A stretch of 64,000 nt of DNA from Chiloscyllium plagiosum (GCF_004010195.1 NC_057757.1:2123940-2187939), one strand, 5' to 3'. Counted from the first letter of the stretch, positions 1 through 64,000 are shown. Numbers and translations: made by a program. Notes: generated by a model not told the origin, from the letters alone.

Positions 1-135
1 CCTCTAGCTTATCTCTCCACGCTTCAGGCTCGCTGCCTTTATTCCTGATGAAGGGCTTTTGCCTGAAATGTCGATTTTGAAGCTCCTCGGATGCTGCCTG
101 AACTGCTGTGCTCTTCCAGCACCATTGATCCAGAG
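1..135 (+). mobile_element. 3' end (pLTR) of a Penelope-like element with a minimal hammerhead motif
   Basis: CTGATGA at 45-51, extra A, GGGC-TTTT-GCCT stem, GAAA at 65-68, then TGTC; followed by the ggatgctgcctga...ttccagcacca tail shared with copies at 37190, 54100 and 56550. Confidence 0.7.
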
Positions 136-943
136 CGACCTGACATCGTTTGTTTGTAGTGGGGTGCATCCCAAGTCTTAACCTTATGAAAACAACTTCA
201 GGAAGCTGCATTTACATAGCGTCAGAACTATTCCTACAGTGCCCCCTCTCGCCCAAACAAAATGGACACTTTCGAGAAACACATCACGGTGAAAGCTTGG
301 TCAGGGAGGTCGATTTTTAGGACAAGTCTTCGAGGAGGAAAGAGGAGAGAGAAAAGTTGAGGAATTCTAGGAACTAAATGTGGAAGTTATTCCTCCAAAC
401 CCTCTCCCATCAGCTGAGGAGGTGGTGGAGCAACAAAGATCTGGAGCCCTTGGTGGGCAGTAAGGCTGGAAGACAAATCTAAAAGGCAGAGTCCCTTAGA
501 TTCTGCTCTGTAATTGCAACACAGATGCTTTACTTTGCATTCTCACCCCTGTCAACCTCTCACACACCAAATCCCTGGATGCTTAAATTGATACAACAGA
601 GGAGGATGCATGCATGCCCTTCCTTTTCAGGTGACAATTTTCTTTCAAATGTGTCAATTGAACCTTCCACTACCATACCCTGAGGTGATTCATTCCAGAT
701 CCTAAACTTACTGCATGAAAAAATGTATCAAGTCTCCATTACTTCTTTAGCTAATTACCTTGAACCTTTGTCCTGTCATTCCCAATTCTTCCATCAACAG
801 GTACAATCTTGGGATATCTGGTCAGCATGGATGGGTTGGACCGAAAGGTCTGTTCCTGTGCTGTACATCTCTATCACTCTTCCAGGAACCCTTTAACAAT
901 TCTCCTCCAGACCTGTTTTTCTACAAGAAAAAGAGATTTGACT

Positions 944-1243
944 GCATGGTGGCTCAGTGATTGGCACTGCTACCTCAAAGCGCCAGGGCATCTGGGTTCA
1001 ATCTCACCCTTGGGTGAGTGTCTGCATGGGTTTCTTCTGGGTGCTCTGGTTTCCTCTAACAATCCAAAGAATTGCAGGTCAGATGGTTGGCCATGCTAAA
1101 TTGCTCATAGTGTCCAGGGATGTTCAGGCTAGGTGGATAATAACCCCATGTGAGGTCATGGGATTGGTATCTGATGGGATGCTCTTCGGAGGGTCAGTGC
1201 AGACTCAATGAGCGTCTTACTGCACTGTAAGAATTTGGTGTTC
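944..1243 (+). mobile_element. HE1-like tRNA-derived SINE (diverged)
   Basis: tRNA-like head with A box (tggctcagtga) and B box (ggttcaatc), body ttggccatgctaaattg; similar to the intact copy at 61762. Confidence 0.75.
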
Positions 1244-1829
1244 TGCAATCTAGCTACGTGTCTGAAGTTCTCATCTTAGGAACTGTTCTCAGTAAACATT
1301 TTCTGCACTTCCTCTAGTGTTTCCTGATGTGTGATCTCAATGCATTGCTTCAGTTGAGACCAAACTAGGTGTTTTAAGTTGCATTGTGTGCAATTTTTTG
1401 AAAGCCTAGAGGAAAAATGCCTATAAAATAAAATATCCTTTATTGAGAAATGAAGGCTGTTGGTAACTGGGTTAATTGAACTTGGTTGGAGTCTGGACAT
1501 GGACATCTGAGCAGCCAAATCAGAGCACCCTCAGTGGCCATGGATGACAATTCACTGCATTCTCAGATTCAATTCAGAAAGTGCAGGTCCCCTCACATAA
1601 AACCCAGGCCTTTTAAAGTTCTGAAGGGTCACTTTCGCTGAAATGTTACCCTTATTTCTCTCCACAGATGTTGCCTGACCTGCTGAGTTTTTCCAGCAAG
1701 TGCTGTCAAGGGCTTATTCATTTGATGTGTTGTTTCGATTGTGGAACATGAAACCTCAAAGCCTTATTAATGTCTCTTGGCAGATTCAGAGGTATGTTTT
1801 GAGGAAATAATAAAGGCACATGATCATAA

Positions 1830-2532
1830 TGTTATGAAAGTGTAAGGGATACTGTACCTTTAAGGGAGTTAAAAGCTAGCAGAACTACCTGGTAGCACCA
1901 AGTGTTCTGAACAAGATATAATGTAACCTTTTCGTCCAGCAGCTAGGGTAGCTGGTTGCCTAGAGACAAAAACAAATTCGAATTAGGCCAATCAGTTTAA
2001 ATTATACCCTCCCCCCAAAAAAACAAACTCCAATAGAGTTTAAATTTAGTATATTAACAATGTTAAAAGCCAATGGCACAATCCGATGTTTTGGAGGTGT
2101 AAGACTGGGGAAAATTGAACAATTGAGGGAGAACTGCAAAAAGACCAACAGGTGGAGGCTGCCAGTAAGAACCCTCAGAGATACCTGTTGAGAGAAGGAG
2201 TTTGCACAGAGGAAAAACGTCGACACTGACCTGGAGAGAAACTCTACAGAGGAAGATAAGACAGCTGACTGATTTTGAAATTTGAATTTTGGTAAATCTT
2301 AATCAGGGGTTTTATTGGACTAGTATTATAGAAGGAAAGTAAAAGATAGGTTAGAGGACGGAATTGTAAATAGTTGTTAATTAATTTTCTGTTATACTTC
2401 TATAAATAAAGGTGTTAATTTTTGCTTTAAATAGTTCTTGGCCCCTCGAATTTTCACAGATTACTGCACACAATAAATTTTTCTATGTTGCAGGTTCAAA
2501 TTAAGCAGGAGGGTTTATTCCGTGTTGTAACA
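1830..2532 (+). mobile_element. Solo LTR (LTR retrotransposon or ERV), 703 bp
   Basis: Starts TGTTATGA and ends TTGTAACA (TG..CA, inverted TGTTA/TAACA); 4-bp TSD ATAA at 1826-1829 and 2533-2536; internal CCAAT boxes and AATAAA at 2405-2410. Confidence 0.8.
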
Positions 2533-2549
2533 ATAATGTTTTCTGCGCA

Positions 2550-3534: not shown

Positions 3535-5075
3535 ACAAAAAAATCACAACACCAGGTTATAGTCTAACTAGTTACCTGATGAAAGAGCAGCACTCTGAAA
3601 GTTAGGAGAACGTGAGGACTGCAGATCCTGGATATCAGAGTCAAAAGCATCATCACATTCCTAAAGAAGACCTTATGCTCGAAACATTGATTCTCCTGCT
3701 CTCGGATGCTGCCTGACCGACTGTGTTTTTCCAGCACCACACTTTTTGGCACTGAAAGCCAGAATTTCCAAATAAACCTGTTGGACTATAACCTGGTGTT
3801 GTGCAACTTTTAACTTTGTCCATCCCAGGCCAAGTGTTCTGTTGCCTGCCACTTCAACAGAACATCATATTCCCTATCAGTGAAACTATCAGATGAAAGG
3901 CTTAACAGACAATCAATTCTTCAATGTATAATTTCAGTTACATCACACTGCAAATTTTTGCTATAAATTCTGTGTTACGATTGAGCCCTCCACAATCACC
4001 TGATGAAGGAGTGTCGCTTCGAAAGCTAGTGTGCTTCCAATTAAACCTGTTGGACTATAACCTGGTGTTGTGTGATTTTTAACATCATATTCCCTAGCTA
4101 ACATCTGTCTCAGGGGCTTGCTGCAGTGCTCCAGCAAAGCAAAGCTCAAGCCGGAAGAACAGCACCTAATTTTCTCCTCGACGACCGATCAGCTCTCAGG
4201 ACCTAATATTGAGTTCATAGAAACATAGAAATTAGATGCAGGAGTAGGCCATTCAGCCCTTCGAGCCTGCACCACCATTCAGTATGATCATAGCTGATCA
4301 TGCTATTTCAGTATCCCATTCCCGCTATACCCCTAGATCCTTTCAGCTGCAAGAGCCATGTCAAACTCCTTCTTGACTATAATCGAATTGGCCCCAACAG
4401 CTTTCTGTGCGAGAGAATTCCACAGGTTCACAACTCTCTCTGAGTGAAGAAATTCTTCCTCATCTCAGTTCCCTCATTCTTAGTCCTTGATCCCTAGTTC
4501 CAGACCTCCCCAACATCAGGAACATTCTTCACACATCTAACTTGTCCAGTCCCATCAGGATTTTATATGTTTCTATGAGATCCCCCTTTATTCTTCTAAA
4601 TTCCAGCAAGTACAAGCCCAGTCGATCCAGTCTTTCATTGTCCGTTAGTCCTGCCATCCCAGGATTTGTGATAGGTCTGGGTGGGTTGCTCTTTGGAGGG
4701 TTGGTGTGGAGTTGTTGGGCCGAAGGGCCTGTTTCCATACTGTAGGAAATCTAATCTAACTGCAACATGACATCCCTACTCTTATACTCAAGCCAGGTTC
4801 AACAATTTTAGGGCCCTAGCACCTTGTCCCATGTCCTTACCCCAACCCACACATACACCAGGCCTTGTCATCTCATGGTCTACTACCACAAACCATCCCA
4901 ATGTCAACCATTCATGGTCCCCATTAGCAACTATTGATTCTCCCAGCTTGACAATTACCCCAGTCCTGGGGCTCCAAACCTTTCCTACAATCAGTTCTGA
5001 AGAAAAGCCACTGGACCTGAAAGGTTAATTCTGTTTTTACCTCCCCCTCCACATGCGCTGCTGAGTTTCTCCAGC
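3535..5075 (+). mobile_element. Cluster of nested Penelope-like fragments interrupted by a CR1/SINE insertion
   Basis: PLE endonuclease C-terminal-like remnant (EEQHLIF...PNIEF) at about 4130-4216, resuming near 4797; inner element 3877-4080 flanked by 16-bp TSD AACATCATATTCCCTA; antisense CR1 3' end at about 4217-4790. Confidence 0.6.
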
Positions 5076-5440
5076 AGGGCTACTACGCAAGCGCAGTGAC
5101 GACCGGCCGTTGTTCCGGGGAGACAGCGGTTGGCTGCGCGGGTCAGGCCACGTGCGGGCGGTTGGTCAGCGGCGCGGGAAATTCAAAACACGTCACAGTG
5201 CCGGGGGCGGAGCCGCTGCCATGACAGCCAGACCGGGGTGCGAGCGGCGTGAGTACTGAAAATGGCGCTAGGCCCCAAAAAGCTCAAGAGGCCAAAAATA
5301 AACGGCGAGTCTTGCGGCCGGTGGCAATGGGTACGCTGAGTGGCTCGGATACAGGCGGACCAACGGTGGTCTGGGGAAATTGGTGAACTTGATTGTGGTT
5401 CAGGTACGGGGTGGGGTCGGGAAATGGCGGACAGATGGAT
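5050..5440. promoter_or_regulatory. CpG-island promoter and first exon of the TMEM217-like gene
   Basis: Sharp CpG enrichment; E-box CACGTG (~5149), GGCGCGGGAAATTCAAA (E2F/CDE plus CHR, ~5171-5187), CACGTCAC, YY1-like AAAATGGCG (~5260) and AAATGGCGG (~5422); donor GGC|GTGAGT at 5249. Confidence 0.75.
5221..5248 (+). CDS. Putative upstream coding exon of the TMEM217-like gene (MTARPGCER, phase 1)
   Basis: GCCATGA start context, 28 nt to a GTGAGT donor; splicing to the ttcag| acceptor at 7685 is in frame with the ATG at 7711. Confidence 0.5.
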
Positions 5441-6340
5441 ACATTGTGATCGGAGTAATGGTGGGTTGAGGGGGGGGAACAGGTGGACCAATAGTGGTTG
5501 AGCACGGAAGGACCTATGCTAGTTGGGCCAATGGTGGCTTGACGATACAGGTGGTCCAATGGTGGCTTGGCGATACAGGTGGTCCAATGGTGGCTTGGCG
5601 ATACAGGTGGGTCAATGGTGGCTTGGCGATACAGGTGGGTCAATGGTGGCTTGGCGATACAGGTGGGCCAATGGTGGTTTGGTGATACAGTTGGGTTAAT
5701 GGTGGCTTGGCGATACAGGTGGGTCAATGGTGGCTTGGCGATACAGGTGGTCCAATGGTGGCTTGGCGATACAGGTGGGTCAATGGTGGCTTGGCGATAC
5801 AGTTGGGTTAATGGTGGCTTGGCGATACAGGTGGGCCAATGGTGGCTTGGCGATACAGGTGGGTTAATGGTGGCTTGGCTACAGGTGGGTCAATGGTGGC
5901 TTGGCGATACAGGTGGTCCAATGGTGGCTTGGCGATACAGGTGGGCCAATGGTGGTTTGGTGATACAAGGGGGCTGAAAATGTGTTGCTGGAAAAGCACA
6001 GCAGGTCAGGCAGCATCCAAGGAGCAGGAGAATCGATGTTTCGGGCATGAGTCCTTCTTCTGGAATCTGAAGAACCTGATACAAGGGGGACCAATGGTGC
6101 CTTGGCTACAGATGGACCAATGGTGCTTTGGTGATACAGGTGGACCAATGGTGGTTTGGTGATACAGGTGGACCAATGTTGATTTGGGGGTGGCGGTGGT
6201 ATAGGTGGACCATAGTGCTTTGAGAGGTACATGTGAATGAATGGTGGTTGAACACAGGTGTACCAATGACACTTTTGGGGCAGGTTGATCAATGGTAGTT
6301 TGGGTACAGGTGGACCAGTGATGGTTTGGACTTAGGTGTT
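5357..6340. repeat. 28/29-bp minisatellite (CAATGGTGGCTTGGCGATACAGGTGG[G]TC)n
   Basis: Homogeneous core at about 5525-5970 with degenerate units on both flanks; interrupted at 5974-6076 by a PLE-tail fragment. Confidence 0.9.
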
Positions 6341-12087: not shown

Positions 12088-12197
12088 TCACACTTTCATC
12101 AATCCCATGAAAGTCGAATCTTTCTCCATGACAATGGTCGCAGAATTCCGAGGAATCACCAGTTCTATGATGTCCCCTTTCTGTAGCTTGTAGATAC
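12088..12197 (-). CDS. TNFSF13: TNFSF13 (APRIL)-like exon 6: GIYKLQKGDIIELVIPRNSATIVMEKDSTFMGLMKV*
   Basis: Acceptor tctccttttgaag|, phase 1, TGA at 12090-12088; TNF-domain C-terminus (LxxGD...IPR...TFxG) as in APRIL and BAFF. Confidence 0.9.
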
Positions 12198-12379
12198 CTT
12201 CAAAAGGAGAATAGAGAAAACAAATTATCTTCAGTATAAAAACAAGATCGATGTATTTTTCTGGGGAATTGCATAAGTGTATGAGGAAGAAGGGATAGTG
12301 GATTATCCTGGAGGAAGAATGAGAAGAGCTCGAGCAGCAAAAATGCTGGCAAGAGCATAGTTTCTTGAACGTGGAGTCA

Positions 12380-12940
12380 CAGGTAGTTAGGGTGATGAAG
12401 AAGGTGTTTAGTATGCTTGCCTTCATTGGTCAATGTATTGAGTTCAGGAGTTGGGATATAATGGTTGCAGCTGTACAGGACATTGGTTAGGCCACTTTTA
12501 GATACTGTGTTTAGTTCTGGTCTCCCTGCTATAGAGAAGATGTTTTTAAGCCTGAATGGATTCAGAAAAGATTTACAAGTATATTGCCACAACTGGAGGG
12601 TTTGAGCTATAGGGAGCGGCGCTGATTAGGTTGGGGCTTTTCTCCCTGGAGCATCGGAGGCTGAGGGGTGACGTTTATAGAGGTTTATAAAATCATGAGG
12701 GGCATGGATGGGGTAAATAGCTAAGGTATTTTGCCCAGGGTAGGGGAGTCCAAAACTAAAGGGCATAGGTTTAAGGTGAGAGAGGAAAGGTTTGAAAGGG
12801 ACCGGTGGGGTGTGCAAAAACATCTGGATGGGCACATGAATTGGGAGGGTTTAGAGGGATATGGGCCAAATGCTGGCAAATGGGACTAGTGGATGAGTTG
12901 GACTGAAGGGTCTGTTTCCGTGCTGTATAACTCTGACTCT
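12380..12940 (+). mobile_element. CR1 LINE 3' fragment
   Basis: Degenerate ORF2 C-terminus and CR1 tail. Confidence 0.75.
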
Positions 12941-15190: not shown

Positions 15191-15269
15191 TTATAATACA
15201 TCAACAACCCTGTCATAAGTATGTATTTGAGTTTTAATAGCTATCACTGTCAATGAGTATGTGCTGAAT

Positions 15270-50427: not shown

Positions 50428-50460
<33 letters not shown>

Positions 50461-50864
50461 CCCCCCCCACACCCCCCATACCGGGCGGCACAGTCCCTTC
50501 ATCTCCCTATCCCTCTCTCTATCCCCATCTCTTCCCTTCCCGACCCCCCATTTATCTCTCTCTTCCCCCCCCCCCAATCCCTCTATCCCCCGTTCCCATT
50601 CTTCAGAATGGAGGCAGAGATTATGGGTGTGAGTCCCACTCCTGACAATGAAATATCAACCTTAGCAGATGCACTAAGTGGGTGTGGGTGGGGGGAATGG
50701 TGGTGGTAGACTTTTGGAATTTCCAGCCCAACAGGGCCCTCAGTATACTTAAGACAGACAGCACTAGCCTTCTACATGTTAAAGATATCAAGGGATAGTG
50801 CGGAAAAATGGTGTTGAAGAAGATCAACCGTCATCTGACCGTACAACAATGCCTGCACCCTCAG

Positions 50865-51385: not shown

Positions 51386-51495
51386 ACAGTGAGGTTTAAA
51401 CCTGTTTGACCAGTACTTAAAACGAAAATATTTTTTGGACAATGTTCAGCTGGAAAGGTGGGGTGGGGTGGGGGTGGAGGGGAGAGGTGTCTTGC

Positions 51496-51617
51496 CTGAC
51501 TGTATATGTAGTAGACTCCCTCCCGGTGTACGGTGAATCTGGCCGTCTTGTTGTTGTAGGTCACTGCACTTTTGGTCGTCTCAAGTGGGCATTCTAACCA
51601 CTGCCTGATGATCCCAC
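51496..51617 (-). CDS. TNFSF12: TNFSF12 penultimate exon: GGIIRQWLECPLETTKSAVTYNNKTARFTVHREGVYYIYSQ
   Basis: aaacag| acceptor in phase 1, 122 nt, ends CAG|GCAAGA (GC donor); aligns with human YNRQIGEFIVTRAGLYYLYCQ. Confidence 0.9.
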
Positions 51618-52169
51618 CTGTTTGTGGAAAGTGAGAGAGAAAAACAAAAGGTGAAGCTTCACCACTTTATCAGAGAGAGTGGTACACAGTGAGATTATTG
51701 ATGTGAAACACTGTTCCTATTCGATGTTGAAGTCCTCACCCCGGTCTCCAAATCCCACTGTGCCCTTGCTCCCTCGGATCCTGGTTCTCTCCCGTAAACT
51801 CTGCAGGGTCTCAGTGTTCCTCCAATTCTTTCTCTGCCACGCCCTGTCTGGGGCTCACCCTGTGGTATCCCATCCTAAACCTCTCCCTATGTTCCTTCAG
51901 GCGTCCCCACCTTGGCCAAGCCTTTGGTTACCTGTCCTCATATCTCCTTTTGTGGTTCACTGTTGAGTTTTGATGATTCTTGGCATCATCAAGAGCCCTG
52001 GAGATGCTTTGCAATGCCAAAAACTCCATTCAAATGCAAGTGGCCAGGCGTTGTTGTTGTGCACAGAACATTTCCAAGATACCTCTTTCCTTCACCATCC
52101 AGGAGGGATTTCCGCTACCTTGAGAAGCTGGGCCCGTTGCCTTTCCAGCCCAGAAAGTGAAGATTTAAT

Positions 52170-52468
52170 CCCTACAGTGTGGAAGCAGGCCATTAAGCCC
52201 ATCGAGTCCACACCACCCCTCCGAAGAGCATGCCACCCAGACCCATCATCCGACATTCCCCATGACTAATCCACCTAGCCTGCACGTCCCTGGACATTAC
52301 AGGACAATTTCCCACCCTAACCTGCACATTTTTGGAGTGTGAGGGAAACCAGAGCATCCAGAGGAAACTCATGCAGAACGTGCAAACTCCACACAGTCAG
52401 CTGAGGCTGGAATCGACCCCGGGACCCTAGTGCTGTGAGGCAGGAGTGCTAACCTCTGAGCCGCCATG
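52170..52468 (-). mobile_element. HE1-like SINE
   Basis: Reverse-complement SINE head and tail. Confidence 0.7.
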
Positions 52469-52529
52469 CTGAATGCTTTATTCAATGCTGTATCACTCTA
52501 TGATAACGTGTACTTGTTGACGTGTTGAG

Positions 52530-53860
52530 TACAAGGATAGACAAGTTATGCAGCAGCTTTATTAGAACTTTAGTTCAGCCACACTTGGAATATTGCGTAC
52601 AGTTTTGGTCACTACACTACCAGAAGGATGTGGATGCTTTAGAGAGGGTACAGAAAAAGTTTACCTGGATGTTGCCTGGTATGGGGGATTTTAGCAATGA
52701 AGAAAGATTGGATACACTGGGTTTGTTTTCACTGGAACGCAGGAGGTTGAGGGGCGACCTGACAGAAGTTTATAAGATTGGGAATGGTGTGGATAGAGTG
52801 GGAAGAATGAGGCTTTTTCCCAGGGTGGAGGGGTCAATTACTCAGAGGCACAGGGCCAAGGTGCCTTGGGGTATGGGGTGCAGTTTACAAGAGATGTGCG
52901 AGGCATGTTTTTCACACACAGGGAGGTGAGTGCGTGGAATGCGCTGTCAGAGGAGGTGGTGGAAGCAGACACAATAGCAGCATTCAAGAAGCACCTGGAT
53001 AAATATGTGACTAGGAAGGGAATGGAGGGATACAGATCCTTTAAGTGAAGACAGATTTAGTTTGGAAGGGTAGGCTTTCCAGCTGCAGGGCCTGTTCCTG
53101 TGCTGGATTGTTCACTATTCTTTAATGTGTTCAAGGTTGCAGTACATTTGAAGGAGTGAATGAGGTTCTGCTCCTATACAAGACTTCACCATTCCCAAGG
53201 GACAGAGGGACTCTCTGATGTTTGGATCTGGACAGAAACCTCCCCAACAGGTGCCTGAATCTGCTCGGGCTTCGTTCATTCTGCCCTTGCCCTGGTCACC
53301 ACCACTCCAGAAGTAAGAAGGGCTTTCATTACTCTAGCGCCCACTCATACCTTAAGCGTGCCCCATTGCACTTGGCAGATGCAGAGAAACCCTTCCCCGG
53401 TTGGTGCACATTCAGATTCCACACTGGTTAGAGTGTTGCGTTCAATTCTGGTCATCACATTACAGGAGGAAGGTGGAGGCTTTGGAGAGGGTGCAGAAGA
53501 GGTTTAGCAGGATACTGCCTGGAGTAGAGGGTATGGGCTATAAGGAGATGCTAGAAAAGCTTGAGTTGTTTTCTCTGGAGCAGCAGAGGTGAAACATGAA
53601 AGAAGTCTTTCAAAGTATGAGATGTGTAGATAGGGATGATGGACAGACTCTTTCCCCCCCCCAAAATTTAGGATGTGTAATACTAGGGGGCATGTATTTA
53701 AGATGAAAAGGTGGGCGGGGGGGGGGGGAAGTTCTAAACGAGATGTGAGGGGAATGTTTTTTTTAAAACACAGAGTGGTAGGAGTGTGGAATGCAGTGCT
53801 GGGGTGGTGGTGGAGGCATATACAATAGGGGCGTTTAAGAGACTTTTAGATAAGCACGAC
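52530..53860 (+). mobile_element. Two CR1 3' fragments (about 52530-53120 and 53430-53860)
   Basis: LVQPHLEYCVQFWS...ERRRLRGDL and ECCVQFWSSHYRRKVEALERVQKRF. Confidence 0.75.
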
Positions 53861-53994
53861 TGATTAGTCCACTAACATTACCACTTCAGCACTTTGTCCA
53901 CCTGAGATCTTCACAGTAAACAGAACCGATGTTCCAAATCAGATCCTTTTAAGCTGAAACTCTTAACCATCTGACCTGGTTTCGAGGGATATGG

Positions 53995-54137
53995 GAGAAA
54001 GTGAGGACTGCAGATGCTGGAGAGTCAGATCGAAAAGGGTGACCCTGGAAAAGCATAGCAGGCCAGGCAGCGTCCGAGAAGCAGGAGAGTCAACGTTTCG
54101 GGCATGAGCCCTTCATCAGGAATTTCTGAAGGGCTTA
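53995..54137 (-). mobile_element. PLE 3' tail with an intact hammerhead core
   Basis: Minus strand reads attc CTGATGA a GGGC TCAT GCCC GAAAC GTT gac (about 54089-54123). Confidence 0.7.
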
Positions 54138-54139
54138 GG

Positions 54140-55815
54140 CAAGAGTGGACCTTTGGACTGCTGGAAAATGAGGCTGGAGTAGTAGTAATGGGGAACAAAG
54201 AAAAGGTGGAGGAACTGAATAGGTACGTTGCATCAGTTTGCACAGTTCAAGACACCAGCATTTCAAGAGAGTTGGGGCAGATGTGAATGTAGCAGCCATT
54301 GCTAAGGAGATGATGCAGGGAAAACTGAAAGGTCTGAAAGTGGATAAATCACCCAGACCAGATGGACTACACCCCAGGGTTCTGAAGGAGATAGATGAGG
54401 AGATTGTTGAGGCATTGGTGATGATCTATCAGGGAGGGTCCGAGAGGACTGGAAAATGGCTAATGTAACACTGTTTAAGAAGCAATAGAAGTAGAAAACA
54501 GGATACCATCAGTCAGTTAGCCTTACTACAGTTGCTGGTAAGATTTTAGAGTTCATTGTGAAGAATGAGATTGCAGAGTACTCCAAAGTGCATGATAAAG
54601 TAGGGCTGAGTCAGCAATGCTTTGTCAAGAGGATGTCATGCCTGACAAATTTGCTAGAATTCTTTGAGGAGGTAATGAACAAGTTAGATGCAGGAGAGCC
54701 AGTGGATGTGATCTATTTGGTTTTCCAGAAGGCCTGTGACAAGGTGCCACAGAGGAGGCTGCTAAATAAGAGCCCATGGTATTAGGGGCAAGGTACTGGC
54801 ATGGATAGAAGATTGGCTGACTGGCAGAAGTCAGCGATTGAGGATAAAAGGGTCTTTTTCAGGATGGCAGCCCAGTTTTGCATGGGTCCGTGTTGGGACC
54901 ACAACTATTCACGTTATATGTTAACAATGTGAACAAACAAACTGGGTTGTTACTTGGTTTACAGATGACACAAAGATAGATGGAGGGACAGGTAGCATGG
55001 AGAAAGCAGAGGAGGCTCCAAAGGGCTTTGTCAGGCTAGGAGAGTGGGCAAAGAAGTGGCAGATGGAGTACAATGAGGTTATGCATTTTGGTAGGAAGAA
55101 TAGAGGTGTAGACTATTTTCTAAACAGGAAAGGCTTTGGAAATCTGAAGTACAAAGGAACTCAAGTCCTAGTTCAGGATTCTGTCAAGGTTAACATGCAG
55201 GTTCAGTTGGTAGTTAGGAAGGCAAATGCAATGTAAGCATTTATTTCAAGAGAGCTAGAATACAAGAGAAGGAATGTACTGCTGAGGCTGTATAAGGCTC
55301 TGGGCAAAATCGCTTTTGGAATATTGAGAGCAGTTCTGGGCCCCCGATCTAAGCAAGGATGTGCTGGCCTTGGAGGGGGTCCAGAGGGGATATTCAAGAA
55401 TGATTCAGGGGGTGAAGGGCTTGTCATGTGGGGAGCAGTTGAGGACCCTGGGTCTGTCCCTGATGGAGTTTAGAAGGATTGGTGGTGAGGGGGGTGGGTG
55501 TGGTGGTTTGGAGTCGGATTGAAACTTTTGGAATCCTGAGAGCCCTGGTTGTAGTGGAGGTGGGGAAGGTATTTCTACCAGTAGGACAAACTAGGACCCA
55601 AGGGCACAGCCTCAGGGTGAAGGGATGGACTGATATGGGGAAGGAATTTCTTCAGCCGGAGAGCTGCGGAGGCCAAGTCATGGAATGTCTTTATGACAGA
55701 GATAGGTTCTTGACCGGTAAGGGGGTTCAAGGGTTATGGGGAGAATGGGGCTGAGAAACAATATCTGCCACGATCGAATGCTGGAATAGACTCGATGGGC
55801 CAAAGGGCCTATGGA
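54140..55815 (+). mobile_element. Degenerate CR1 ORF2 fragment
   Basis: KSPRPDGLHPRVLKE, SCLTNLLEFFEEV and EWAKKWQMEYN remnants. Confidence 0.8.
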
Positions 55816-56063
55816 ATTATTTCAGGAATTCCGAGCTGGTGAAAGGCAATGCAGCAACTTGCTTTTTCTGTAAAAAGGGGTGTTTTCTCATGTTAAATGC
55901 TTCCCAAACAGAAGTTGAGTGTAACCTTTCTTCAGGACTGTTCAGGCCTTTGGGTTACACCTGAAATGTCGACTTCTCTACCTCCTGATGCTGCCTGGCT
56001 TGCTGTATTCTTCGAGCCTTCTGCTTGTCCACCTAAGATTCAGCATCTGCAGTTTCTTGTCCC

Positions 56064-56081
56064 TGGCCACCAGATGGCAGC
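56064..56081 (+). promoter_or_regulatory. CTCF-like motif
   Basis: TGGCCACCAGATGGCAGC fits CCASYAGRKGGCRS. Confidence 0.55.
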
Positions 56082-56464
56082 TTTGCCTGAACCTCCCCAG
56101 CTCACTGAACGACGCCATAGGCTGCCTTTGAGGGGGAGGTAACAAGGGGGAAAATGTGACAAACTCTGTCATTACTGAATGCCCATCTGTCAAAGTGAAG
56201 CTACCAGCTACTGAACGGGAACAGAAAAGTTAGAACGATAAGACATTGGAGCAAAAGTAGGCCATCCAGCTCAATGAGGCTGCTCTGCCTGTCAATGAGA
56301 TAGTAGCTAATCCTGAACTCTACCTGCCAAGGCATGTGACTGGGTCTAAAACCTGCGGAAAACGCGAGGTGGGTTATTTCAGCCTGAACGCAGAAGGGGT
56401 TTGTTCAGCCAGAAGGTGAGGAATCTTCAAAATTCTGAGAGTGACAGCCCTTGACATCAAGGAG

Positions 56465-57050
56465 GAGAAAGTGAGGACTGCAGACGCTGGAGATCAAAGT
56501 CGAGGATGTGGTGCAGGTCAGGCAGCATCTGAGGAGCAGGAGAATCGACGTCTCGGGCAAAAGCCCTTCATCAGGAATGAGGCTTGTGAGCGGAGAGGGT
56601 GGTGAGATAAATGGGAGGGGGTTTGGAGCGGTAGCTGGGAGTGCGATAGAGAGATAGAGTTAGGGGGTGATGGTGATAAGTTGGAGAGGAGGGTGGAACG
56701 GATAGGTGGGAAGGAAGATGGACAGGTAAACAGGGCGGTGCTGAGTTGGAAGGTTGGATCTGGGATAAGGTTGGGGAGGGGGGGGTGGAAAAATGTGGAA
56801 ACTGGTGAAATCCACATTGACGTCGTGTGGTTGGAGAATCCCAAGGTGGAAAATGAAGCGTTCTTCATCCAGGCATCGGGGGATGGAGGAGGCCCAGGAC
56901 CTGCATATCCTTGGCAGAGTGGTAGGGGAAGTTGATGTGTTCGGCCACGGGGCGGTGAAGTTGGTTGGTGTGGGTGTTCCAGAGATGTTCTCTGAAGCGT
57001 CAAGGCGGTGTCTGACAGACTGGCGTCAAGAAGCCTGAGAAAAACTGAAG
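56465..57050 (-). mobile_element. Penelope-like element 3' part (endonuclease C-terminus, pyrimidine-rich UTR, pLTR)
   Basis: Minus-strand EERFIFHLGILQPHDVNVDFTSF remnant joined to the same tail as the 37056 element; hammerhead with GAAA changed to GAGA. Confidence 0.7.
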
Positions 57051-57075
57051 GCAATGGCTGTCAGGGAGCAAACTC

Positions 57076-58085
57076 TTGATGGTTGGAGTCATACATGGGA
57101 AGATGCTCATGGGTGTTGGACGTCAATTATCTCAGCTCCAGGACATCTCTGCAGGGGTTCCTGAGGGTAGTGTCTTAGGCCCGACCATCTTCAGCTGCTT
57201 CATCATTGACCTTCCCTCCACCATAAGGTCAGAAGTGGGGAAGTTCGCTGATGATTGCACAATATTCAGCACAATTCGCCACTCAGATAATGAAGCAGTC
57301 CGTGTCCAAATGCAACGAGATCAGGACAATATCCAGGCTTGGGTTGACAAGTCGCAAGTAACATTTGTACCACACAAATGCCACACTAAGACCATCACCA
57401 TTAAAACACAATCTAACCACTGCCCCTTGACATTCAATGGTGTTACCATCACTGAATCCCACACTATCAACATTGTGGGGGATACCATTGGCCAGAAGCA
57501 AACTGGACTCTCCACATGAACACAGCGGCTACAAGAGCAGGTCAGAGGCTGGGAATCCTGCAGCAAGTAACTCCCCTCCTGACTCCCAAAAGCCGGTCCA
57601 CCATCAACAAGGCACAAGTCAGGAGTGTGAGGGAATACTCCCCACTTGTCGTGCATGGGGGCAGCTCCAACAACACTCAAGAAGCTCAACACCATCCAGG
57701 GACAAAGTAGCCCCCCAGTTGATTGGCTTCACATCTACAAACATACCACTCCCTCCCCCACCAACACTCAGTAGCAGCAGTTTGTACCATCTACAAGATG
57801 CACTGCAGCGACTCATTGCAACTATCATCGACAACACCTTCGGAAGACATGACCTTGACATTGAGGAGAACAAGGGCAGCAGATATAAAAGGAACAACAG
57901 TCCCTGCAGGTTCCCTTCTTCGCCCCTCTCCAGCCTGACTGGGAAATATATCAACCGTTCCCCAACAGCATTGCAGGTCTCCCCTAAGCAAACAGACTGC
58001 AGCAGTTCAATAGGGCTGCTTGACACCTTTCTGCAGGGTGAAAAAGCATGGCTAATTAAATGCTGGGTGAAGTGATTCCCACATC
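57076..58085 (+). mobile_element. CR1/L2-group LINE RT and 3' fragment (second family)
   Basis: GVPEGSVLGPTIFSCFI.DLP...FADDCT; related tails at about 19085-19370, 32680-33050 and 47975-48450. Confidence 0.75.
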
Positions 58086-58309
58086 CAGTGAATGAATCAA
58101 GAGTGAAAAATAACAGTATTCTTAAGTGTGTGATGTTTATGCTGAACGCCCTCTTGTGTTGCTCACAGGATAAAGCTTTAATTGTGGAATTGTCCTACTC
58201 CCAGCTGAGTGACAGTAGGGGCCAATCACTATGTTTCCTCTGCACTGTCAGCTGATGCAGGTTACCAGCCAAGATGGTTGTATTATCTAGGATGAGTGTC
58301 AATATATTT

Positions 58310-58858
58310 AGACCACATTTGGAACACTGCATTCAATTCTGGTTCACCTGCTATAGGAAGGATGTTGTGAAACTTGAAAGGGTTCAGAAAAGATTTACAA
58401 GGATGTTGCCAGGGTTGGAGGGTTTGAGCTATAGGGAGAGGCTGAACAGGCTGGGGCTGTTTTCCCTGGAGCGTCGGAGGCTGAGGGGTGACCTTATAGA
58501 GGTTTATAAAATCATGAGGGGCATGGATAGGATAAATAGACAAAGTCTTTTCCCTGGGGTCGGGGAGTCCAGAACTAAAGGGCATAGGTTTAGGGTGAGA
58601 GGGGAAAAGATAAAAGGGATCTAAGGGGTAACTTTTTCATGCAGAGGGTGGTACGTGTGTGGAATGAGTTGCCAGAGGATGTGGTGGAGGCTGGTACAAT
58701 TACAACATTTAAAAGGCATCTGGATGGGTATATGAATAGGAAGAGATGAGAGGGATGTGGGCTAAATGCTGGCAGATGGGACTAGATCAATTTATGAAAT
58801 CTGAACAGCTTGGACAAATTGGACCGAAGGGTCTGTTTCCATGTTGTACAGCTCTATA
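58310..58858 (+). mobile_element. Young CR1 3' fragment
   Basis: Intact RPHLEHCIQFW...LERRRLRGDLIEVYKIMRG. Confidence 0.85.
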
Positions 58859-59580
58859 TACAAATGTTCCCTCGCTCTCTCTGCAGTTGGCCAACTGGCA
58901 TTGACAAGGTATCACTGTGACACAATTAAGAACTGAACACTCCCCTCTCCCAAACCCAATGTCCCAGCAATTCATACCCATTCCTGACATCTCAATGTGC
59001 ACAGGAACTGTTGCGCTCCAGGTGTAGACAGGTGCATTTCTGTAGCATCTTTCATGACACGGCAAAAACCCCAGAGGCAATCAAGGGTCTTTTTTTCTGA
59101 ATTGAAGCAACTCCTACAATGAATGGAGTGGGGCCTCCGTTTTGAGCACTGCATGATCCCACAACCTGATGACAATCGGCTGAAATCTTTCCGAATGGCG
59201 ATGGCAGAGTTGTGAATATTAGGCCCAGGACACATTGGGGCAGGGGGTGGAGGGGAAACTCATCTGCTGCTGCCCCTCAGTTTTATATTCTCTCAGCATC
59301 AGCATGGATGACTCCGTGAAGATGAACTGGATTCTGTCAACGCTTTGTCTCTCTAGTCTTCCAGCAAGCAGGAGAGTCACCAACAATAATTCCTGTCCAT
59401 TGACTAACTCCCAGTTAATGATTCAAACTCACCCTGCAGTGTCAAATGGATGGGAATTTATCTCTGAGGCAGGATGCCCAGGTTCTAATCCAGACTGCTC
59501 CAGAGATGTGTCATAATGTCTCAGAACAGACTGGAGAGAAAATATGTAAAAAGGCAACACCATCAAAAGTAGCTACCTAC

Positions 59581-59622
59581 CCTTCTCAACGATGTATGTC
59601 CCATCCACATTATTGGGCATCA
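59581..59622 (-). CDS. TNFSF12: TNFSF12 small exon: (V)MPNNVDGTYIVEK(G)
   Basis: tattttgcag| acceptor, G|GTAGGT donor, 42 nt, phase 1 to 1; completes AAHFEV (human AAHYEV). Confidence 0.75.
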
Positions 59623-59714
59623 CTGCAAAATAAATACAAACAAGAGTAAAAATTCAGAAAAACCAAAAGATCATTAACCCTCTTCTCATAAACACTCAAA
59701 CTCTGAATCAGTCT

Positions 59715-59747
59715 GTCTCTCACACACTGACTCTCACTGGGGTACAA

Positions 59748-59778
<31 letters not shown>

Positions 59779-60735
59779 TGCACACTCTCTCACTGGGTAC
59801 AGCTCCTACACACACTGACTCTCACTGGGATGCAGTTCCTACACACACACTGACTCTCAGTGGGATACAATCCCTCTCTCTCTCTCACACACACGCACGC
59901 ACGCACACAGACTCTCACTGGGATACAGTCCCACACATACACTGACTCTTATTGGAGTACAGTCCCATGCACATACACACACTGACTCTCACTGGGATAC
60001 AGTCCCACACATACACTGACTCTTATTGGAGTACAGTCCCATGCACATACACACACAGACTCTCACTAGAGTACAGTCCCACACACTGACTCTCACTGGG
60101 GTACAGTATCACACATACACTGACTCTTATTGGGGTACAGCCCCTACACACATTGACTCTCACTGGGATACAATCCCTCTCTCTCTCACACACACGCACG
60201 CACTCTCACTGGGGTACAGCTCCTACACACACTGACTCTCACTGGGATACAGTCCCACACATACACTGACTCTTATTGGAGTACAGTCCCATGCACATAC
60301 ACACACAGACTCTCACTAGAGTACAGTCCCACACACTGACTCTCACTGGGGTACAGTATCACACATACACTGACTCTTATTGGGGTACAGCCCCTACACA
60401 CATTGACTCTCACTGGGATACAATCCCTCTCTCTCTCACACACACGCACGCACTCTCACTGGGGTACAGCTCCTACACACACTGACTCTCACTGGGATAC
60501 AGTCCCACACATACACTGACTCTTATTGGAGTACAGTCCCATGCACATACACACACAGACTCTCACTAGAGTACAGTCCCACACACTGACTCTCACTGGG
60601 GTACAGTATCACACATACACTGACTCTTATTGGGGTACAGCCCCTACATACACACACACACACACTGACTCTCACTGGGGTACAGCTCTCTCACACACTG
60701 ACTCTCACTGGGGTACAGCTCTCTCTCACACACAC
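59715..60735. repeat. CA-rich minisatellite with a 250-bp higher-order repeat
   Basis: Basic unit of about 26-30 bp (cacactgactctcactggggtacagtcc); identical blocks start at 60026, 60276 and 60526. Confidence 0.9.
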
Positions 60736-60762
60736 CCCATTCTGTGTGAACACAGACCTTAC

Positions 60763-60807
60763 CTTCAAAATGAGCTGCCATAGGCTGCTTGGTTTTGACC
60801 CCAGAAT
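60763..60807 (-). CDS. TNFSF12: TNFSF12 exon: xSGVKTKQPMAAHFE; the upstream exons were not found in the window
   Basis: ttcaacag| acceptor, G|GTAAGG donor, 45 nt, phase 1 to 1; AAH motif of TNF strand A. Confidence 0.82.
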
Positions 60808-61274: not shown

Positions 61275-62130
61275 TTTATTTGTCATTTCTACCATATACA
61301 GTAAAAACCGAGACAGCGTTACTCCAGGACCAAGGTGCTACATGAACAGCACAAACTACACGATCGTACGCAGGGCGGCATAAGAAGTGCAAAACACGCA
61401 AATTACAGTGTCATAAAAGAATGATAATTAATAGACGTTCTAGCAGCAATTTGAAGTCGTGCAAAGAATTTCAGATGGAATAGAGTCCGATCATACAATG
61501 TTAAGGAGCCTGATGGCTTGGGGGAAGAAAATGTTGCACAGTCAGGCCGTGAGAGACCGAATGCTCCGGTATCTTCTGCCAGATGGCAGGAGGGAGAAGA
61601 GTTTGAGTGAGGGGTTTGTGGGCTCTTCCACAATGCTCTTAGCCTTTCGGATGCAGCGTGTGGTGTAAATGTCTGTAATGGAGGGAGAGAGACCCCGATG
61701 ATCTTCTCAGATGTCCTCACCATCCTCTGTAGAGTCTTATGATCTGAGACGGTGCAATTCCATGGCGGCACGGTGGCACAGTGGTTAGCACTGCTGCCTC
61801 ACAGCGCCAGAGACCCGGGTTCAATTCCCGCCTCAGGTGACTGTCTGTGTGGAGTTTGCACATTCTCCCAGTGTCTGTGTGGGTTTCCTCCAGGTGCTCT
61901 GGTTTCCTCCCACAGTCCAAAAATGTGCAGATTAGGTGAATTGGCCATGCTAAATTGTCCATAGTGTTAGGGGCAGGGGTAAATGTAGGGGAATGGGTCT
62001 GGGTGGGTTGCGCTTCGGTGGGTCGGTGTGGACTTGTTGGGCCGAAGGGCCTGTTTCTACACTGTAAGTAATCTAATCTAATCTAATTCCTGAACCAAGC
62101 AGCAGCTCAGGGTACTCTTAATGAACCAGG
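61275..62130 (-). mobile_element. Rex1/Babar-like LINE 3' fragment split by a SINE
   Basis: NCTVSDHKTLQRMVRTSEKIIGVSLP and an LLPSG-type C-terminus on -. Confidence 0.65.
61762..62084 (+). mobile_element. Full-length HE1-like SINE
   Basis: A box TGGCACAGTGG, B box GGTTCAATTCC, (TAATC)n tail; TSD AATTCC at 61756-61761 and 62085-62090. Confidence 0.88.
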
Positions 62131-62714
62131 TCAGTCATGAACTGGGGGTCATGGTGTAAGGATATGTGGTCGGACTGAAAGGAGGAAAAAAATGTCTTCA
62201 CCCAGAGAGTGGGTGGAATTCTCTAGCACGGACAAGTGAGGTCAAAACATTGAGTGTTTTCAAGGAAAGTTGGGTATAGTTCTTGGGGTGAAAGGGATCT
62301 AAGGGCAAGGGGGAAAGAAACAGGAACAGGGGTCTGAGGTGGACGATTCCTTGTTCGTTATGTTTGGGTCACGAAGGGTTCAGAGAGAAAGAATATGGAC
62401 AGACAATATGGGCAGACGACCAGAGAGGTACAGATAAATGACAGCAGGCAAGTGGAAAGGCAGGGGGGGGGGGGGATGAGGAGTTTATATTTTCGGTTGG
62501 GGTCCGGAATGGGTTGCTGAAAGAGTCATGGGCGAGGGAGGAAGGTTTGGGAAGAGAATGACTCCAGCTCAGAACGCAAGCAGAGATTTTCGCATTGGGT
62601 GACAAAACGCACAGAGTATGACACCCATGCTCCTTTGCACACTTTCTATTCCATGGTCAACCTACCTTAACCTTTGACTGTGGAAGGAAACCAGAGCAGA
62701 CAGGGTTACAATGT

Positions 62715-63890
62715 AGCCATGAAGGAACTGAAGAATGGACTTAGGAGAGGTAGAGGGGGGTAATAAGAAAGCTTTAGTGGACAGGATTAAGGAAAGCCCT
62801 GTGAGGAATGAGAGGATTACCAGAGTGAGGGTAGGGCTGATCAGGGATAGTGGAGGGAGGGAAGGTTCTGAATGAATACTTTTGCTTCAGTATTCACTAC
62901 TGAGAGGGACCTTGTCACTCATGAGGACAGCGTGAAACAGGCTGATACACTCAAACAGCTTGATGTTAAGGAGGATGTGCTAAACATTTTGAAAAACAAG
63001 GCTAGATCAGTCCCCTGGGCCAGACGGGATATTCTCAAGGCTACTACAGGAAGCGAGGGAAAAGATTGCTGCACCTTTGGCGATGAACTTTGCATCCTCA
63101 CTGTCCACTGGAGTAATGCTAGATGATTGGAGGTTGGCAAATGTTATCCCTTGTTCAAGAAAGGGAATTCTTGAGAATTACAGACCAGTCAGTCTTACCT
63201 GTGTGATGGGCAAAGTATTGGGAGAGGATTCTGAGAGACAGGATTTATGATTACTTGGAAGGCCATAGTTTAATTAGATATAGTCAGCATGGCTTTGTGA
63301 AGGGCAAGTCATGCCTCACAAACCTTACTGAATTCTTTGAGGATGTGACAAAACACATTGATGAAGGTAGAGGAGTAGATATGGTGTACATGGATTTTAG
63401 CAAGGCATTTGATAAGATTCCCCATGATAGTCTCATTCAGAAAGTAAGGAGGCAAGGGATACAGTGAAATTTGGCCGTCTGGATACAGAATTTGCTGGCC
63501 CATAGAAGACAGAGGTGGTGGTTGATGGAAAGTATTCAGCCTGAAGCTCGGTGACCAGTGGTGTTCTGTAGGGATCTTTTCTGGGTCCTCTGCTCTTTGT
63601 GATCTTTATAAGTGACTTGGCTGAAGAAGTGGAAGGATAGGTTAGTAAATTTGCCGATGACATGAAGGTTGGTGGAGTGGTGCGTAGTGTGGAGGGCTGT
63701 TGTAGGTTGGAATGGGACATTGACAGGATGCAGAACTGGGCTGATAAATGGCAGATGGAGTTCAACCTGGAAAAGTGTGAAGTGATTCATTTTGGAAGGT
63801 CAAATTTGGATGCAGGATTCTTGGCAGTGTGGAGGAACAGAGGGATCTTGGGGTCCATGCCCATAGATCCCTCAAAGTTGCCACCCAAGT
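62715..63890 (+). mobile_element. CR1 RT fragment
   Basis: SQHGFVKGKSCLTNL.EFFE, YMDFSKAFDK and WADKWQMEFN. Confidence 0.82.
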
Positions 63891-63894
63891 TATG

Positions 63895-64000
63895 ATTTGG
63901 AGATGCCGGTGTTGGACTGGGGTGTACCAAGTTAAAAATCACGCAACACCAGGTTATAGTCCAACAGGTTTAATTGGAAGCACACTAGCTTTCAGAGCGC
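63895..64000 (-). mobile_element. PLE 3' tail of the same family as 3877-4080, cut by the window edge
   Basis: Reverse complement of gaaagctagtgtgcttccaattaaacctgttggactataacctggtgttg. Confidence 0.7.

What the first reader, a model, noticed from the sequence alone, without database searches (positions are those of the whole stretch)
41..64000. Several families of PLE-derived minimal hammerhead ribozyme motifs are scattered across the locus
Seen: CTGANGA-(extra nt)-stem II-GAAA-(CG/GC/TG)-TH motifs in at least four unrelated flanking contexts. Family A is at 45(+), 37190(+), 37176(-) and 54119(-), with mutated copies at about 6050(-) and 56570(-). Family B is at 3576(+) and 4000(+). Family C is at 15545(-) and 39879(-). 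Family D is decayed (about 4998+, 43300-). Known: Penelope-like elements carry minimal type-I hammerheads that lack a stable helix III and cleave as dimers, and an extra base after A9 is tolerated. Inference: several minus-strand copies lie within TWEAK or APRIL pre-mRNA or between the genes and might cut nascent RNA.
Basis: partly seen in the sequence, partly recalled or inferred. Interest (0 to 1): 0.7.

Follow-up and report, generated by a model that had tools for sequence, protein, structure and literature searches.

The report
Shark Penelope-element hammerhead stubs
These are real tiny self-cutting-RNA (hammerhead) motifs at the ends of Penelope-type jumping genes, a known kind present about a hundred thousand times in this shark genome; the copies near TWEAK and APRIL are broken, weakened or predicted to be locked in hairpins and likely do not cut those genes' RNA, although U6 RNA copies joined exactly at the predicted cut elsewhere suggest the parent elements do cut in living cells.

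Summary
The motifs are there: 6 of the 12 named sites pass a minimal-hammerhead descriptor (5 strict hits; 0 in 100 shuffles); 37176(-) and 3576(+), listed as intact, are broken. All four families sit behind RT/GIY-YIG remnants of Penelope-like elements (A, B, D Neptune/Nematis-type; C Poseidon-type). They are genome-wide (47 strict hits in 751 kb elsewhere; one 32-mer occurs 30,393 times); this locus is not enriched. Within families the core is not significantly better conserved than the tail, so copies mostly decay neutrally. Cutting of TWEAK/APRIL RNA is unsupported: the APRIL-intron copy and the intergenic ones are predicted to pair with inverted twins; the two TWEAK-intron copies carry A14G or a UU site with a 2-bp stem I. 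The interesting part concerns the element: short copies start at the ribozyme's 5' edge about 30 nt behind a TATA-like box (likely the transcription start), not at the cut, while 4 of 4 family-A U6 fusions join exactly at the cut, indirect evidence of cleavage in vivo. The scan noted both earlier on other DNA of this genome; I reproduced them, but not the reported cap-derived G. New member of a known kind.

The parts
6..135 (+). Family A (subfamily A2) pLTR end; hammerhead C3 at 45, predicted cut 72/73; helix III insert TG (CpG decay), stem I 2 bp
1597..1707 (+). Family D copy, core deleted
3540..3833 (.). Family B fold-back (inverted tail 3540-3573; hammerhead C3 3576+) split just after its cut site by a nested family-A palindrome (inverted tail ~3605-3647, sense copy 3653-3748 with mutated core); B resumes 3749-3833
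3877..4083 (+). Family B pLTR end, C3 at 4000, predicted cut 4028/4029, TATA-like box ~38 nt upstream, ATTAAA poly(A) signal ~+40; 16-bp target-site duplication (3861, 4081)
   Evidence: family-wide poly(A) at +57/+60
4985..5076 (+). Family D copy, C3 at 4997, stem II and helix III decayed
5973..6070 (-). Family A short copy, U4A core mutation, 13-bp target-site duplication (5961, 6077); likely antisense in intron 1 of a TMEM217-like (DUF4534) gene
12091..34769 (-). APRIL (TNFSF13) coding exons: 34769-34605, 22499-~22335, 20160-20110, 18498-18383, 17692-17550, 12198-12091
15472..15900 (-). Family C2 (Poseidon-type) 3' end with GIY-YIG remnant; C3 at 15545, core intact, G10.1-U11.1; sense in APRIL intron 5; predicted to pair with the twin at 16717-16825
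16400..16830 (+). Inverted C2 twin with GIY-YIG remnant, CUGANGA deleted
35479..35524 (-). Family A tail only, no ribozyme
37055..37280 (.). Head-to-head family A palindrome: 37176- (stem II broken, UU site) and 37190+ (descriptor-positive); both arms start at -4; 15-bp target-site duplication (37041, 37280); folds as one long hairpin
39768..40404 (.). Head-to-head family C1 palindrome with GIY-YIG C-terminus; 39879- core intact, 40328+ core mutated; 12-bp target-site duplication (39756, 40401); folds as one long hairpin
43208..43317 (-). Family D copy, C3 lost
50096..60805 (-). TWEAK (TNFSF12) exons ~60805, 59632-59582, 51618-51493, 50350-50096; a further exon lies ~1.5 kb right of the window
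53994..54125 (-). Family A short copy with long tail, C3 at 54119, core intact, UU at the site, stem I 2 bp; sense in a TWEAK intron
55955..56017 (+). Weak family-A-like fragment, antisense to TWEAK
56463..57000 (-). Family A 3' end with GIY-YIG C-terminal remnant; C3 at 56574, A14G; sense in the same TWEAK intron
63889..64000 (-). Family B tail; its core lies just outside the window, has C3G, and is part of a fold-back

Best explanation
The motifs are minimal type I hammerheads in the terminal repeats (pLTRs) of four to five Penelope-like retrotransposon families, left here as 5'-truncated, often fold-back insertions that likely decay neutrally and likely do not cut TWEAK or APRIL RNA. Shown: PLE RT and GIY-YIG remnants upstream of each family, target-site duplications, two alternative 3' ends (optional tail), head-to-head arms, genome-wide abundance. 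Inferred mechanism: the pLTR promoter (TATA-like box, initiator-like motif) starts transcription at or just before the ribozyme's stem I; the element's RT primes in the tail and usually runs to the 5' end of the uncut RNA, giving ~100-130-nt copies that often fold back or join on 1-4 nt microhomology. The ribozyme cuts ~30 nt into the element's RNA only when two copies pair through the palindromic helix III, probably with help from the element's protein (shown in vitro for an Anolis Poseidon, PMC11167929); some cut 5'-OH ends were likely ligated to U6 and retrotransposed. Selection for the motif acts on the active parent elements, not on these copies.
For: Descriptor 5 strict hits vs 0 in 100 shuffles; 47 strict in 750,704 unselected bases vs 0 in 8 shuffles; window expectation 4.0 vs 5 seen. 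Exact 32-mer 30,393 times, reversed control 0. RT (YIDD-type) + GIY-YIG behind A (L146, L144; Pfam GIY-YIG below cut-off; homologues carry PF26215/PF00078/PF01541), B (L151, L152), D (L174, L175, L188) and C (L136, L137). TSDs of 12-16 bp at 4 of 11 units tested. Across families the stems differ in sequence yet pair (2.1-1.1 C-G, A-U, U-A; helix III ACGU vs AGCU). Within subfamilies core vs tail non-CpG mismatches: A 35/885 vs 208/4003 (p=0.15), B 14/228 vs 93/1055 (0.23), D 29/243 vs 249/1714 (0.33), C2 1/70 vs 12/201 (0.19). Longer arm starts at -6..+2 from C3 in 26 of 34 A pairs; 1 of 68 arms starts at the cut. In C2, whose TATA-like box lies 10-13 nt further upstream, 12 of 31 starts fall at -22..-6 and 0 at -5..+8. 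U6 joined at +28 in 4 of 4 family-A fusions among 46 U6 loci. Sense copies predicted locked or weak.
Against: The core is slightly less mutated than the tail in all four families (base-corrected A: 35 seen vs 47.8 expected, p=0.06). No full-length intact element was recovered: the long 'open frames' were mostly assembly gaps. No TSD found at 7 of 11 window units. Transcription start is inferred only: no read-start pile-up at -4 or at the cut in a 3' poly(A) single-cell run; a cap-derived G was not seen (10 G vs 13 A at -5); family C1 shows no 5' pile-up (45 arms). Folding models ignore proteins, tertiary contacts and co-transcriptional kinetics; even young consensus-like dimers are not the lowest-energy fold, so the model cannot rule activity in or out.
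Confidence: 0.85

Rival explanations
1. One or more sense copies cut nascent TWEAK or APRIL (or read-through) RNA and lower or reshape expression, e.g. the intact 54119 core cutting the intact GUC site of 56574 as a heterodimer.
For: 54119- and 56574- are same-family, same-strand and in one TWEAK intron 2.45 kb apart; a nested heterodimer can be drawn with a 4-bp helix III. 15545- has an intact core in APRIL intron 5. U6 fusions suggest family A can cut in vivo.
Against: Heterodimer active fold -9.6 kcal/mol vs -21.6 for the two free strands and -28.1 for the best dimer; stem I is 2 bp plus a mismatch. 15545- is predicted fully paired with the twin transcribed before it. PLE min-HHR dimers cleave weakly in vitro (PMC4209133); 1 of 9 Xenopus retrozyme dimers cleaved (bioRxiv 10.64898/2026.07.22.740005). 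Introns cut by slower hammerheads still splice, as summarised in PMC2995048. Locus density equals the genome background.
Confidence: 0.05
2. The pile-up of 5' ends at the ribozyme's edge comes from RT stalling or fold-back at self-complementary bits of the motif (TTC/GAA around C3, stem II), not from a transcription start.
For: Many junctions have 1-4 nt microhomology and six share one junction around the TTC/GAA mini-palindrome; no cap G; no C1 peak.
Against: Solo copies without fold-back also pile up (A 30 of 71 at -10..+9; D 15 of 29; B 8 of 17). The peak moves to -22..-6 in C2 along with its TATA-like box. A stall at stem II would end copies near +19, not -3.
Confidence: 0.25
3. The short copies are an independent non-autonomous family (SINE, MITE-like palindrome or non-LTR retrozyme) spreading as a unit.
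For: Most copies are ~100-130 nt; 68 of 150 family-A hits are arms of joined palindromes; six share an identical junction.
Against: Most junctions differ; short and long copies share subfamily sequence with RT-EN-bearing copies; no head-to-tail arrays of ribozyme units in the window.
Confidence: 0.1
4. The U6 fusions arise by RT template switching at a sequence or structural stop, so they do not show cleavage.
For: About 16 of 46 U6 loci are, by eye, joined to the head of a tRNA-like SINE, so U6 joins by routes that need no ribozyme; the one C1 fusion is ambiguous over 4 nt.
Against: 4 of 4 family-A junctions are at +28, where 1 of 68 other arms start, and none at the far commoner -6..+2 stop (35 of 68); no microhomology; RtcB joins U6 cyclic phosphate to 5'-OH ends but not 5'-triphosphate (PMC6789731).
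Confidence: 0.2

Closest known systems
Minimal hammerheads (min-HHR) in pLTRs of metazoan Penelope-like elements (Cervera and de la Pena 2014, PMC4209133; parts 1-2 of 4 read: results, discussion, bioinformatic methods)
   Same: Type I core, extra base between 9 and 10.1, G10.1-C11.1, palindromic 15.2-16.2, short helix I, several unrelated families per genome, mostly single or opposite-strand pairs.
   Different: Sharks are not among the taxa named in the parts read; copy number here is of order 10^5 against about 4,000 (coelacanth) and 9,000 (Xenopus) there; the commonest A subfamilies have a U-U mismatch in stem I; supplements not seen.
EN+ PLE insertion structure, Neptune/Nematis and Penelope/Poseidon clades (Craig et al. 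2021, PMC8557442; Arkhipova et al. 2013, PMC3846280; passages read)
   Same: 5' truncation, inverted 5' copy, optional 30-40-nt tail, palindromic junctions, TATA- and Inr-like motifs in the pLTR, linker Zn-finger present in A, B, D and absent in C.
   Different: The sharp pile-up of 5' ends at the ribozyme's 5' edge was not described in the passages read.
Anolis Poseidon PAc (Frangieh et al. 2024, PMC11167929; parts 1-2 of 4 read)
   Same: Two RT start sites define the tail; both DNA strands nicked and extended; ribozyme near the ORF start; uncut RNA is the main template.
   Different: They found cleavage only with protein in vitro and no RNA-seq ends at the cut; here U6 fusions give indirect genomic evidence of cutting.
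U6/L1 chimeric retrocopies made by RtcB (Moldovan et al. 2019, PMC6789731; passages read)
   Same: U6 3' end ending in T run joined to a retroelement RNA 5' end.
   Different: L1 junctions are variable and need an unknown nuclease; here they fall on one ribozyme bond.
Non-LTR retrozymes (bioRxiv 10.64898/2026.07.22.740005; parts 1 and 3 and passages read)
   Same: Type I hammerheads related to pLTRs; one chondrichthyan was surveyed.
   Different: Retrozymes are head-to-tail tandem arrays; these are solo or head-to-head.
Domesticated intronic hammerheads such as the RECK intron ribozyme (named in a figure legend of PMC6155905; details recalled)
   Same: Hammerhead in sense within a vertebrate intron.
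   Different: Those are single-copy, conserved and have stable helices; these are young repeats without helix III.

Membership tests
PLE minimal hammerhead (min-HHR) | CUGANGA and GAAA..UH core in type I order | tested here: met
   6 of 12 named sites; 47 strict in 751 kb; 0 in shuffles
PLE minimal hammerhead (min-HHR) | Extra base after A9, G10.1-C11.1, palindromic 15.2-16.2, no helix III loop | tested here: met
   Family consensuses and covariation across families; some window copies decayed at CpG
PLE minimal hammerhead (min-HHR) | Located in the pLTR behind a PLE ORF | tested here: met
PLE minimal hammerhead (min-HHR) | Self-cleavage as dimer, not monomer | not testable with these tools
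   Only folding energies and indirect U6 junctions
EN+ Penelope-like element | One ORF with RT and C-terminal GIY-YIG endonuclease | tested here: met
   424-codon frame with RT and EN 150 nt before a family-A motif (L146); frameshifted equivalents for B, C, D
EN+ Penelope-like element | Inverted 5'-truncated copy, optional 30-40-nt tail, TSD | tested here: met
   3' ends bimodal at about +85-95 and +120-130; TSD at 4 of 11 units
EN+ Penelope-like element | Full-length copy between two direct pLTRs; retained intron | tested here: inconclusive
   13 candidate loci fetched; 12 hold assembly gaps, none gave a full ORF; intron not examined
Neptune/Nematis clades (families A, B, D) | CX2-5CxxC linker before the EN | tested here: met
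   A L146, B L151 clear; D decayed but visible in L175, L188. Neptune vs Nematis not separated; no tree built
Penelope/Poseidon clade (family C) | No CX2-5CxxC linker | tested here: met
   90 residues before the EN in 9 loci show none; no tree built
Non-LTR retrozyme | Head-to-tail tandem units each with a hammerhead | tested here: not met
   None in the window; genome-wide arrays not searched
Domesticated host ribozyme | Core conserved above flanks, monomer-competent helix III | tested here: not met
Domesticated host ribozyme | Conserved at the orthologous site in other species | not testable with these tools
   No relative genomes held for G000

The most novel reading that the evidence does not exclude
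In shark PLEs the hammerhead is the very first structure of the pLTR transcript: uncut capped RNA is the normal template for the ~10^5 short copies, while cutting, which does occur in the germ line (recorded by U6 ligated at the exact bond), removes the first ~30 nt and so could act as a built-in decapping switch between mRNA and template or decay. In family B a working poly(A) site lies 28 nt after the cut, so host transcripts that end there carry a potential self-deadenylating element.
Probability: 0.45. Interest if true: 0.62.

Novelty: new member of a known kind. Interest (0 to 1): 0.36.

Why it matters
The class is published and the locus is ordinary, so the link to TWEAK/APRIL adds little. 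The open question in the field is what PLE hammerheads do and whether they cut in vivo (stated as unclear in PMC8557442; no RNA ends found in PMC11167929). This genome's copy number turns insertion ends into a record of the RNA ends: 5' ends mark a likely start site at the ribozyme's edge, and U6 fusions mark the cut. Both make the question directly testable with CAGE, 5'-OH sequencing and a few constructs.

Tried and rejected
Rfam scan: no hammerhead family at E<=10; only hairpin matches to miRNA models from the palindromes. Full-length elements: long open frames reported were mostly N runs. 5'-boundary estimate by all-against-all BLAST was confounded by inverted arms and replaced by panel alignment. 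One family-D seed was misoriented and fixed; the D 'intact core 2 of 30' count depends on fixed offsets and is not relied on. Cap-derived G (lead from earlier notes): not seen, 11 G of 67 and 10 G vs 13 A at -5. RNA: no listed holder was on record as RNA; run X20 gave no reads; X19 (3' poly(A) single-cell, about 2 in 100 read) showed no begin/end pile-up at cut or start, which says little because cut fragments would be lost and 251 loose-end rows were not shown. Family C1 5' ends: no peak. Sample-based extrapolation (220,000; 95% 164,000-296,000) overshoots: the same sample predicts 56,850 for a 32-mer that occurs 30,393 times, so I give 1.2-2.2 x 10^5. Lunse et al. (PMC5785218) is not held; cited only through the review PMC6765202. 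Literature searches for hammerhead+Penelope+shark, Penelope+shark+Chiloscyllium, Penelope+hammerhead+transcription start and U6+RtcB+hammerhead+Penelope returned no paper on these points; the library lacks most subscription papers and Repbase, and supplements were not seen.


Full report
Setting. The window is G000:C48:2123940-2187939 in a 3.56-Gb genome. The first APRIL exon matches a protein labelled Chiloscyllium punctatum TNFSF13 at 100% over 55 residues, so this is a bamboo-shark-type genome. That protein and a fused TWEAK-APRIL model from another shark map six APRIL exons (34769-12091) and four TWEAK exons (~60805-50096) to the minus strand; a further TWEAK-like exon lies just right of the window. 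A DUF4534 (TMEM217-like) frame lies at 7660-8292 plus. One APRIL junction (17692-18383) is seen in contigs of X1 and X4 and in 3 reads of X19.

The observation. All 12 named sites exist as repeat copies. A minimal type I descriptor finds 6 in the window (45+, 4000+, 37190+, 54119-, 39879-, 15545-), 5 in the strict form, against a mean of 0.13 loose and 0 strict in 100 shuffles. Two sites given as intact are not: 37176- keeps 2 bp of stem II, and 3576+ is split by a nested family-A palindrome one base after its cut site. The four listed as mutated or decayed are so. Profiles find 22 pieces in all. Positions below are counted from C3 of the core.

What they are. Each family lies behind Penelope-like coding remnants. 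In the window, GIY-YIG C-termini precede 56574- (A), 15545- and 39879-/40328+ (C). Elsewhere a 424-codon RT+EN frame ends 150 nt before an A motif (L146), with homologues carrying RT, PF26215 and GIY-YIG domains (direct Pfam hits were below cut-off in 2 of 5 frames and absent in 3). B (L151, L152) and D (L174, L175, L188) have frameshifted equivalents, as does C. A and B have the CX2-5CxxC linker, D a decayed one, C none, which by PMC8557442 (passages) means Neptune/Nematis-type and Penelope/Poseidon-type. Four of 11 window units tested have 12-16-bp target-site duplications. 3' ends are bimodal, the optional tail that PMC11167929 ties to two RT start sites. The A and D tails share a motif predicted to pair with the far end of the long tail. 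No full-length element was recovered; 12 of 13 candidate loci contain gaps.

Abundance. In 77 stretches of 10 kb taken at round coordinates on 38 large contigs (750,704 bases, not chosen by sequence) there are 52 descriptor hits, 47 strict, against 0 strict in 8 shuffles. One 32-mer spanning the A1 ribozyme occurs 30,393 times (control 0). The sample overpredicts that count 1.9-fold, so the total is about 1.2-2.2 x 10^5. The window's 5 strict hits match an expectation of 4.0: no enrichment.

Conservation. Across families only the core is shared and stems covary, so active lineages keep the fold. Across copies within subfamilies, core and tail mismatch rates at non-CpG sites do not differ significantly (A 35/885 vs 208/4003, p=0.15; B 14/228 vs 93/1055; D 29/243 vs 249/1714; C2 1/70 vs 12/201; only copies spanning -1 to +70 were used: 90 of 150, 24 of 34, 30 of 47, 7 of 10). 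The trend is towards a better-kept core in all four (A base-corrected p=0.06), which unresolved tail variants or selection on parents could explain. G12 and C17 of family A lie in CpGs and decay fast; 56 of 90 A copies keep an intact core.

Can they cut TWEAK or APRIL RNA? 15545- is sense in APRIL intron 5, has no second sense family-C copy in that gene, and is predicted to pair with the inverted twin at 16764-16792, transcribed before it. 37176-/37190+ and 39879-/40328+ are intergenic palindromes that fold into long hairpins; opposite-strand pairs cannot form the dimer in one transcript. In the TWEAK intron 56574- has A14G and 54119- has a UU site and 2-bp stem I; their heterodimer is drawable but about 12 kcal/mol above the free strands. 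Young consensus-like homodimers are also above the free strands (2-16 kcal/mol), so folding alone cannot decide. Published PLE min-HHR dimers cleave weakly (PMC4209133), the Anolis one only with protein (PMC11167929), and slow intronic hammerheads do not block splicing (as summarised in PMC2995048, passages). I put a real effect on these genes at about 5%.

What the ends show. Of 150 family-A hits in the sample, 68 are arms of 34 directly joined head-to-head pairs (pairs with a gap over 15 nt or overlap over 8, duplicates and the window's pair left out). The longer arm starts at -6..+2 in 26 of 34 (median -3); 35 of 68 arms start there and 1 at the cut (+28). B (2 of 3) and D (4 of 5) agree, as do solo copies (A 30 of 71 at -10..+9). 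Copies were therefore made mostly from uncut RNA. The stop lies about 30 nt behind a TATA-like box (clear in B and D, weak in A) at an initiator-like A at -4 in A and D (promoter consensus recalled). As a test set up beforehand, I collected family C by its tail: in C2, with the box at -48, 12 of 31 internal starts fall at -22..-6 and none at -5..+8 (16 of 47 arms ran to the end of the reference and were left out; p about 2e-6 after a scan correction). C1 shows no peak (45 arms), no cap-derived G was seen, and RNA reads show no start pile-up. A transcription start at the ribozyme's edge is thus likely but not shown.

U6 fusions. Earlier notes of this scan led me to U6. Among 46 loci behind 48 U6 matches, four have a family-A tail directly after the U6 T run, all at +28 (L264, L281, L298; L291 in both arms, read by eye because the aligner began at +37 in that subfamily); one C1 fusion is ambiguous over 4 nt; two loci lacked a 3'-end match. 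None is at the common -6..+2 stop. RtcB joins U6's cyclic phosphate to 5'-OH ends, the product of hammerhead cleavage (PMC6789731, passages). About 16 loci are, by eye, U6 joined to a tRNA-like SINE head, so template switching also happens. The fusions are indirect evidence that family A cuts in the germ line; none lies in this window.

Family B poly(A) site. In X19, 827 and 119 reads carry poly(A) at +57 and +60 of a family-B copy, 12-15 nt after an AWTAAA hexamer and before a GU-rich stretch; coverage is mostly sense and runs through the intact ribozyme. Reads come from any similar copy, so the source loci are unknown.

Verdict. Observation largely right; PLE reading right; effect on TWEAK/APRIL unsupported. 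The class was described in 2014; I found no paper on shark copies, the 5'-end pile-up or U6 fusions, but the library is partial and supplements were not seen. The scan had already noted the pile-up and U6 fusions on other DNA of this genome; the pile-up reading was mine before that look-up, the U6 test was not.

Noticed in passing
L079:8118-8121; window 4057-4060: Family B pLTR carries a working poly(A) site 28-31 nt after the predicted ribozyme cut (about 950 poly(A) reads in X19); source loci unknown.
   Followed up: partly
L264, L281, L291, L298, L293: U6 copies joined to PLE tails, four exactly at the predicted cut; two are fold-backs that include the U6 end.
   Followed up: yes
L269, L270, L274, L279, L282-L289, L292, L295, L301, L302: Many U6 copies are joined to the head of a tRNA-like SINE (identity recalled as HE1-type).
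   Followed up: no
family D, e.g. window 43255-43285 (-), 1650-1670 (+): Right after the cut lies a branch-point-like TTAAC, pyrimidine tract and CAG followed by ATG, resembling a 3' splice site; a second CTRAC/pyrimidine/CAG ends at -3.
   Followed up: no
families A and D tails, e.g. window 54075-53996 (-): Shared GATGCTG...CAGCATC pairing predicted across the long tail in two otherwise unrelated families; candidate RT-binding or priming structure.
   Followed up: partly
window 3540-3833: Family A palindrome nested in a family B fold-back, landing next to the B cut site.
   Followed up: partly
window 5465-6330: 28-bp minisatellite next to the CpG island, with a family A insertion in it (13-bp TSD).
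   Followed up: no
window 5050-5405 and 7384-8693: CpG-island promoter and likely first exon (donor at 5404) of a single-coding-exon TMEM217-like (DUF4534) gene.
   Followed up: partly
L031:519-722 and 3573-4064 (-): Exons resembling WRAP53 (recalled from the translation) left of the window, transcribed away from it.
   Followed up: no
window 34769-50096: TWEAK and APRIL are adjacent and co-oriented; another shark's annotation (P0007) fuses them, as in the mammalian read-through (recalled).
   Followed up: no
window 30068-32429, 57049-58800 and elsewhere: Many CR1/L2-type LINE 3' fragments and SINE copies; a tandem LINE fragment around the gap at 31288-31604.
   Followed up: no
window 50950-51400 and 59720-60730: 33-bp and 250-bp minisatellites in TWEAK introns.
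   Followed up: no
L082:3993-4724 (+): 244-codon frame resembling a retroviral pol segment (recalled).
   Followed up: no
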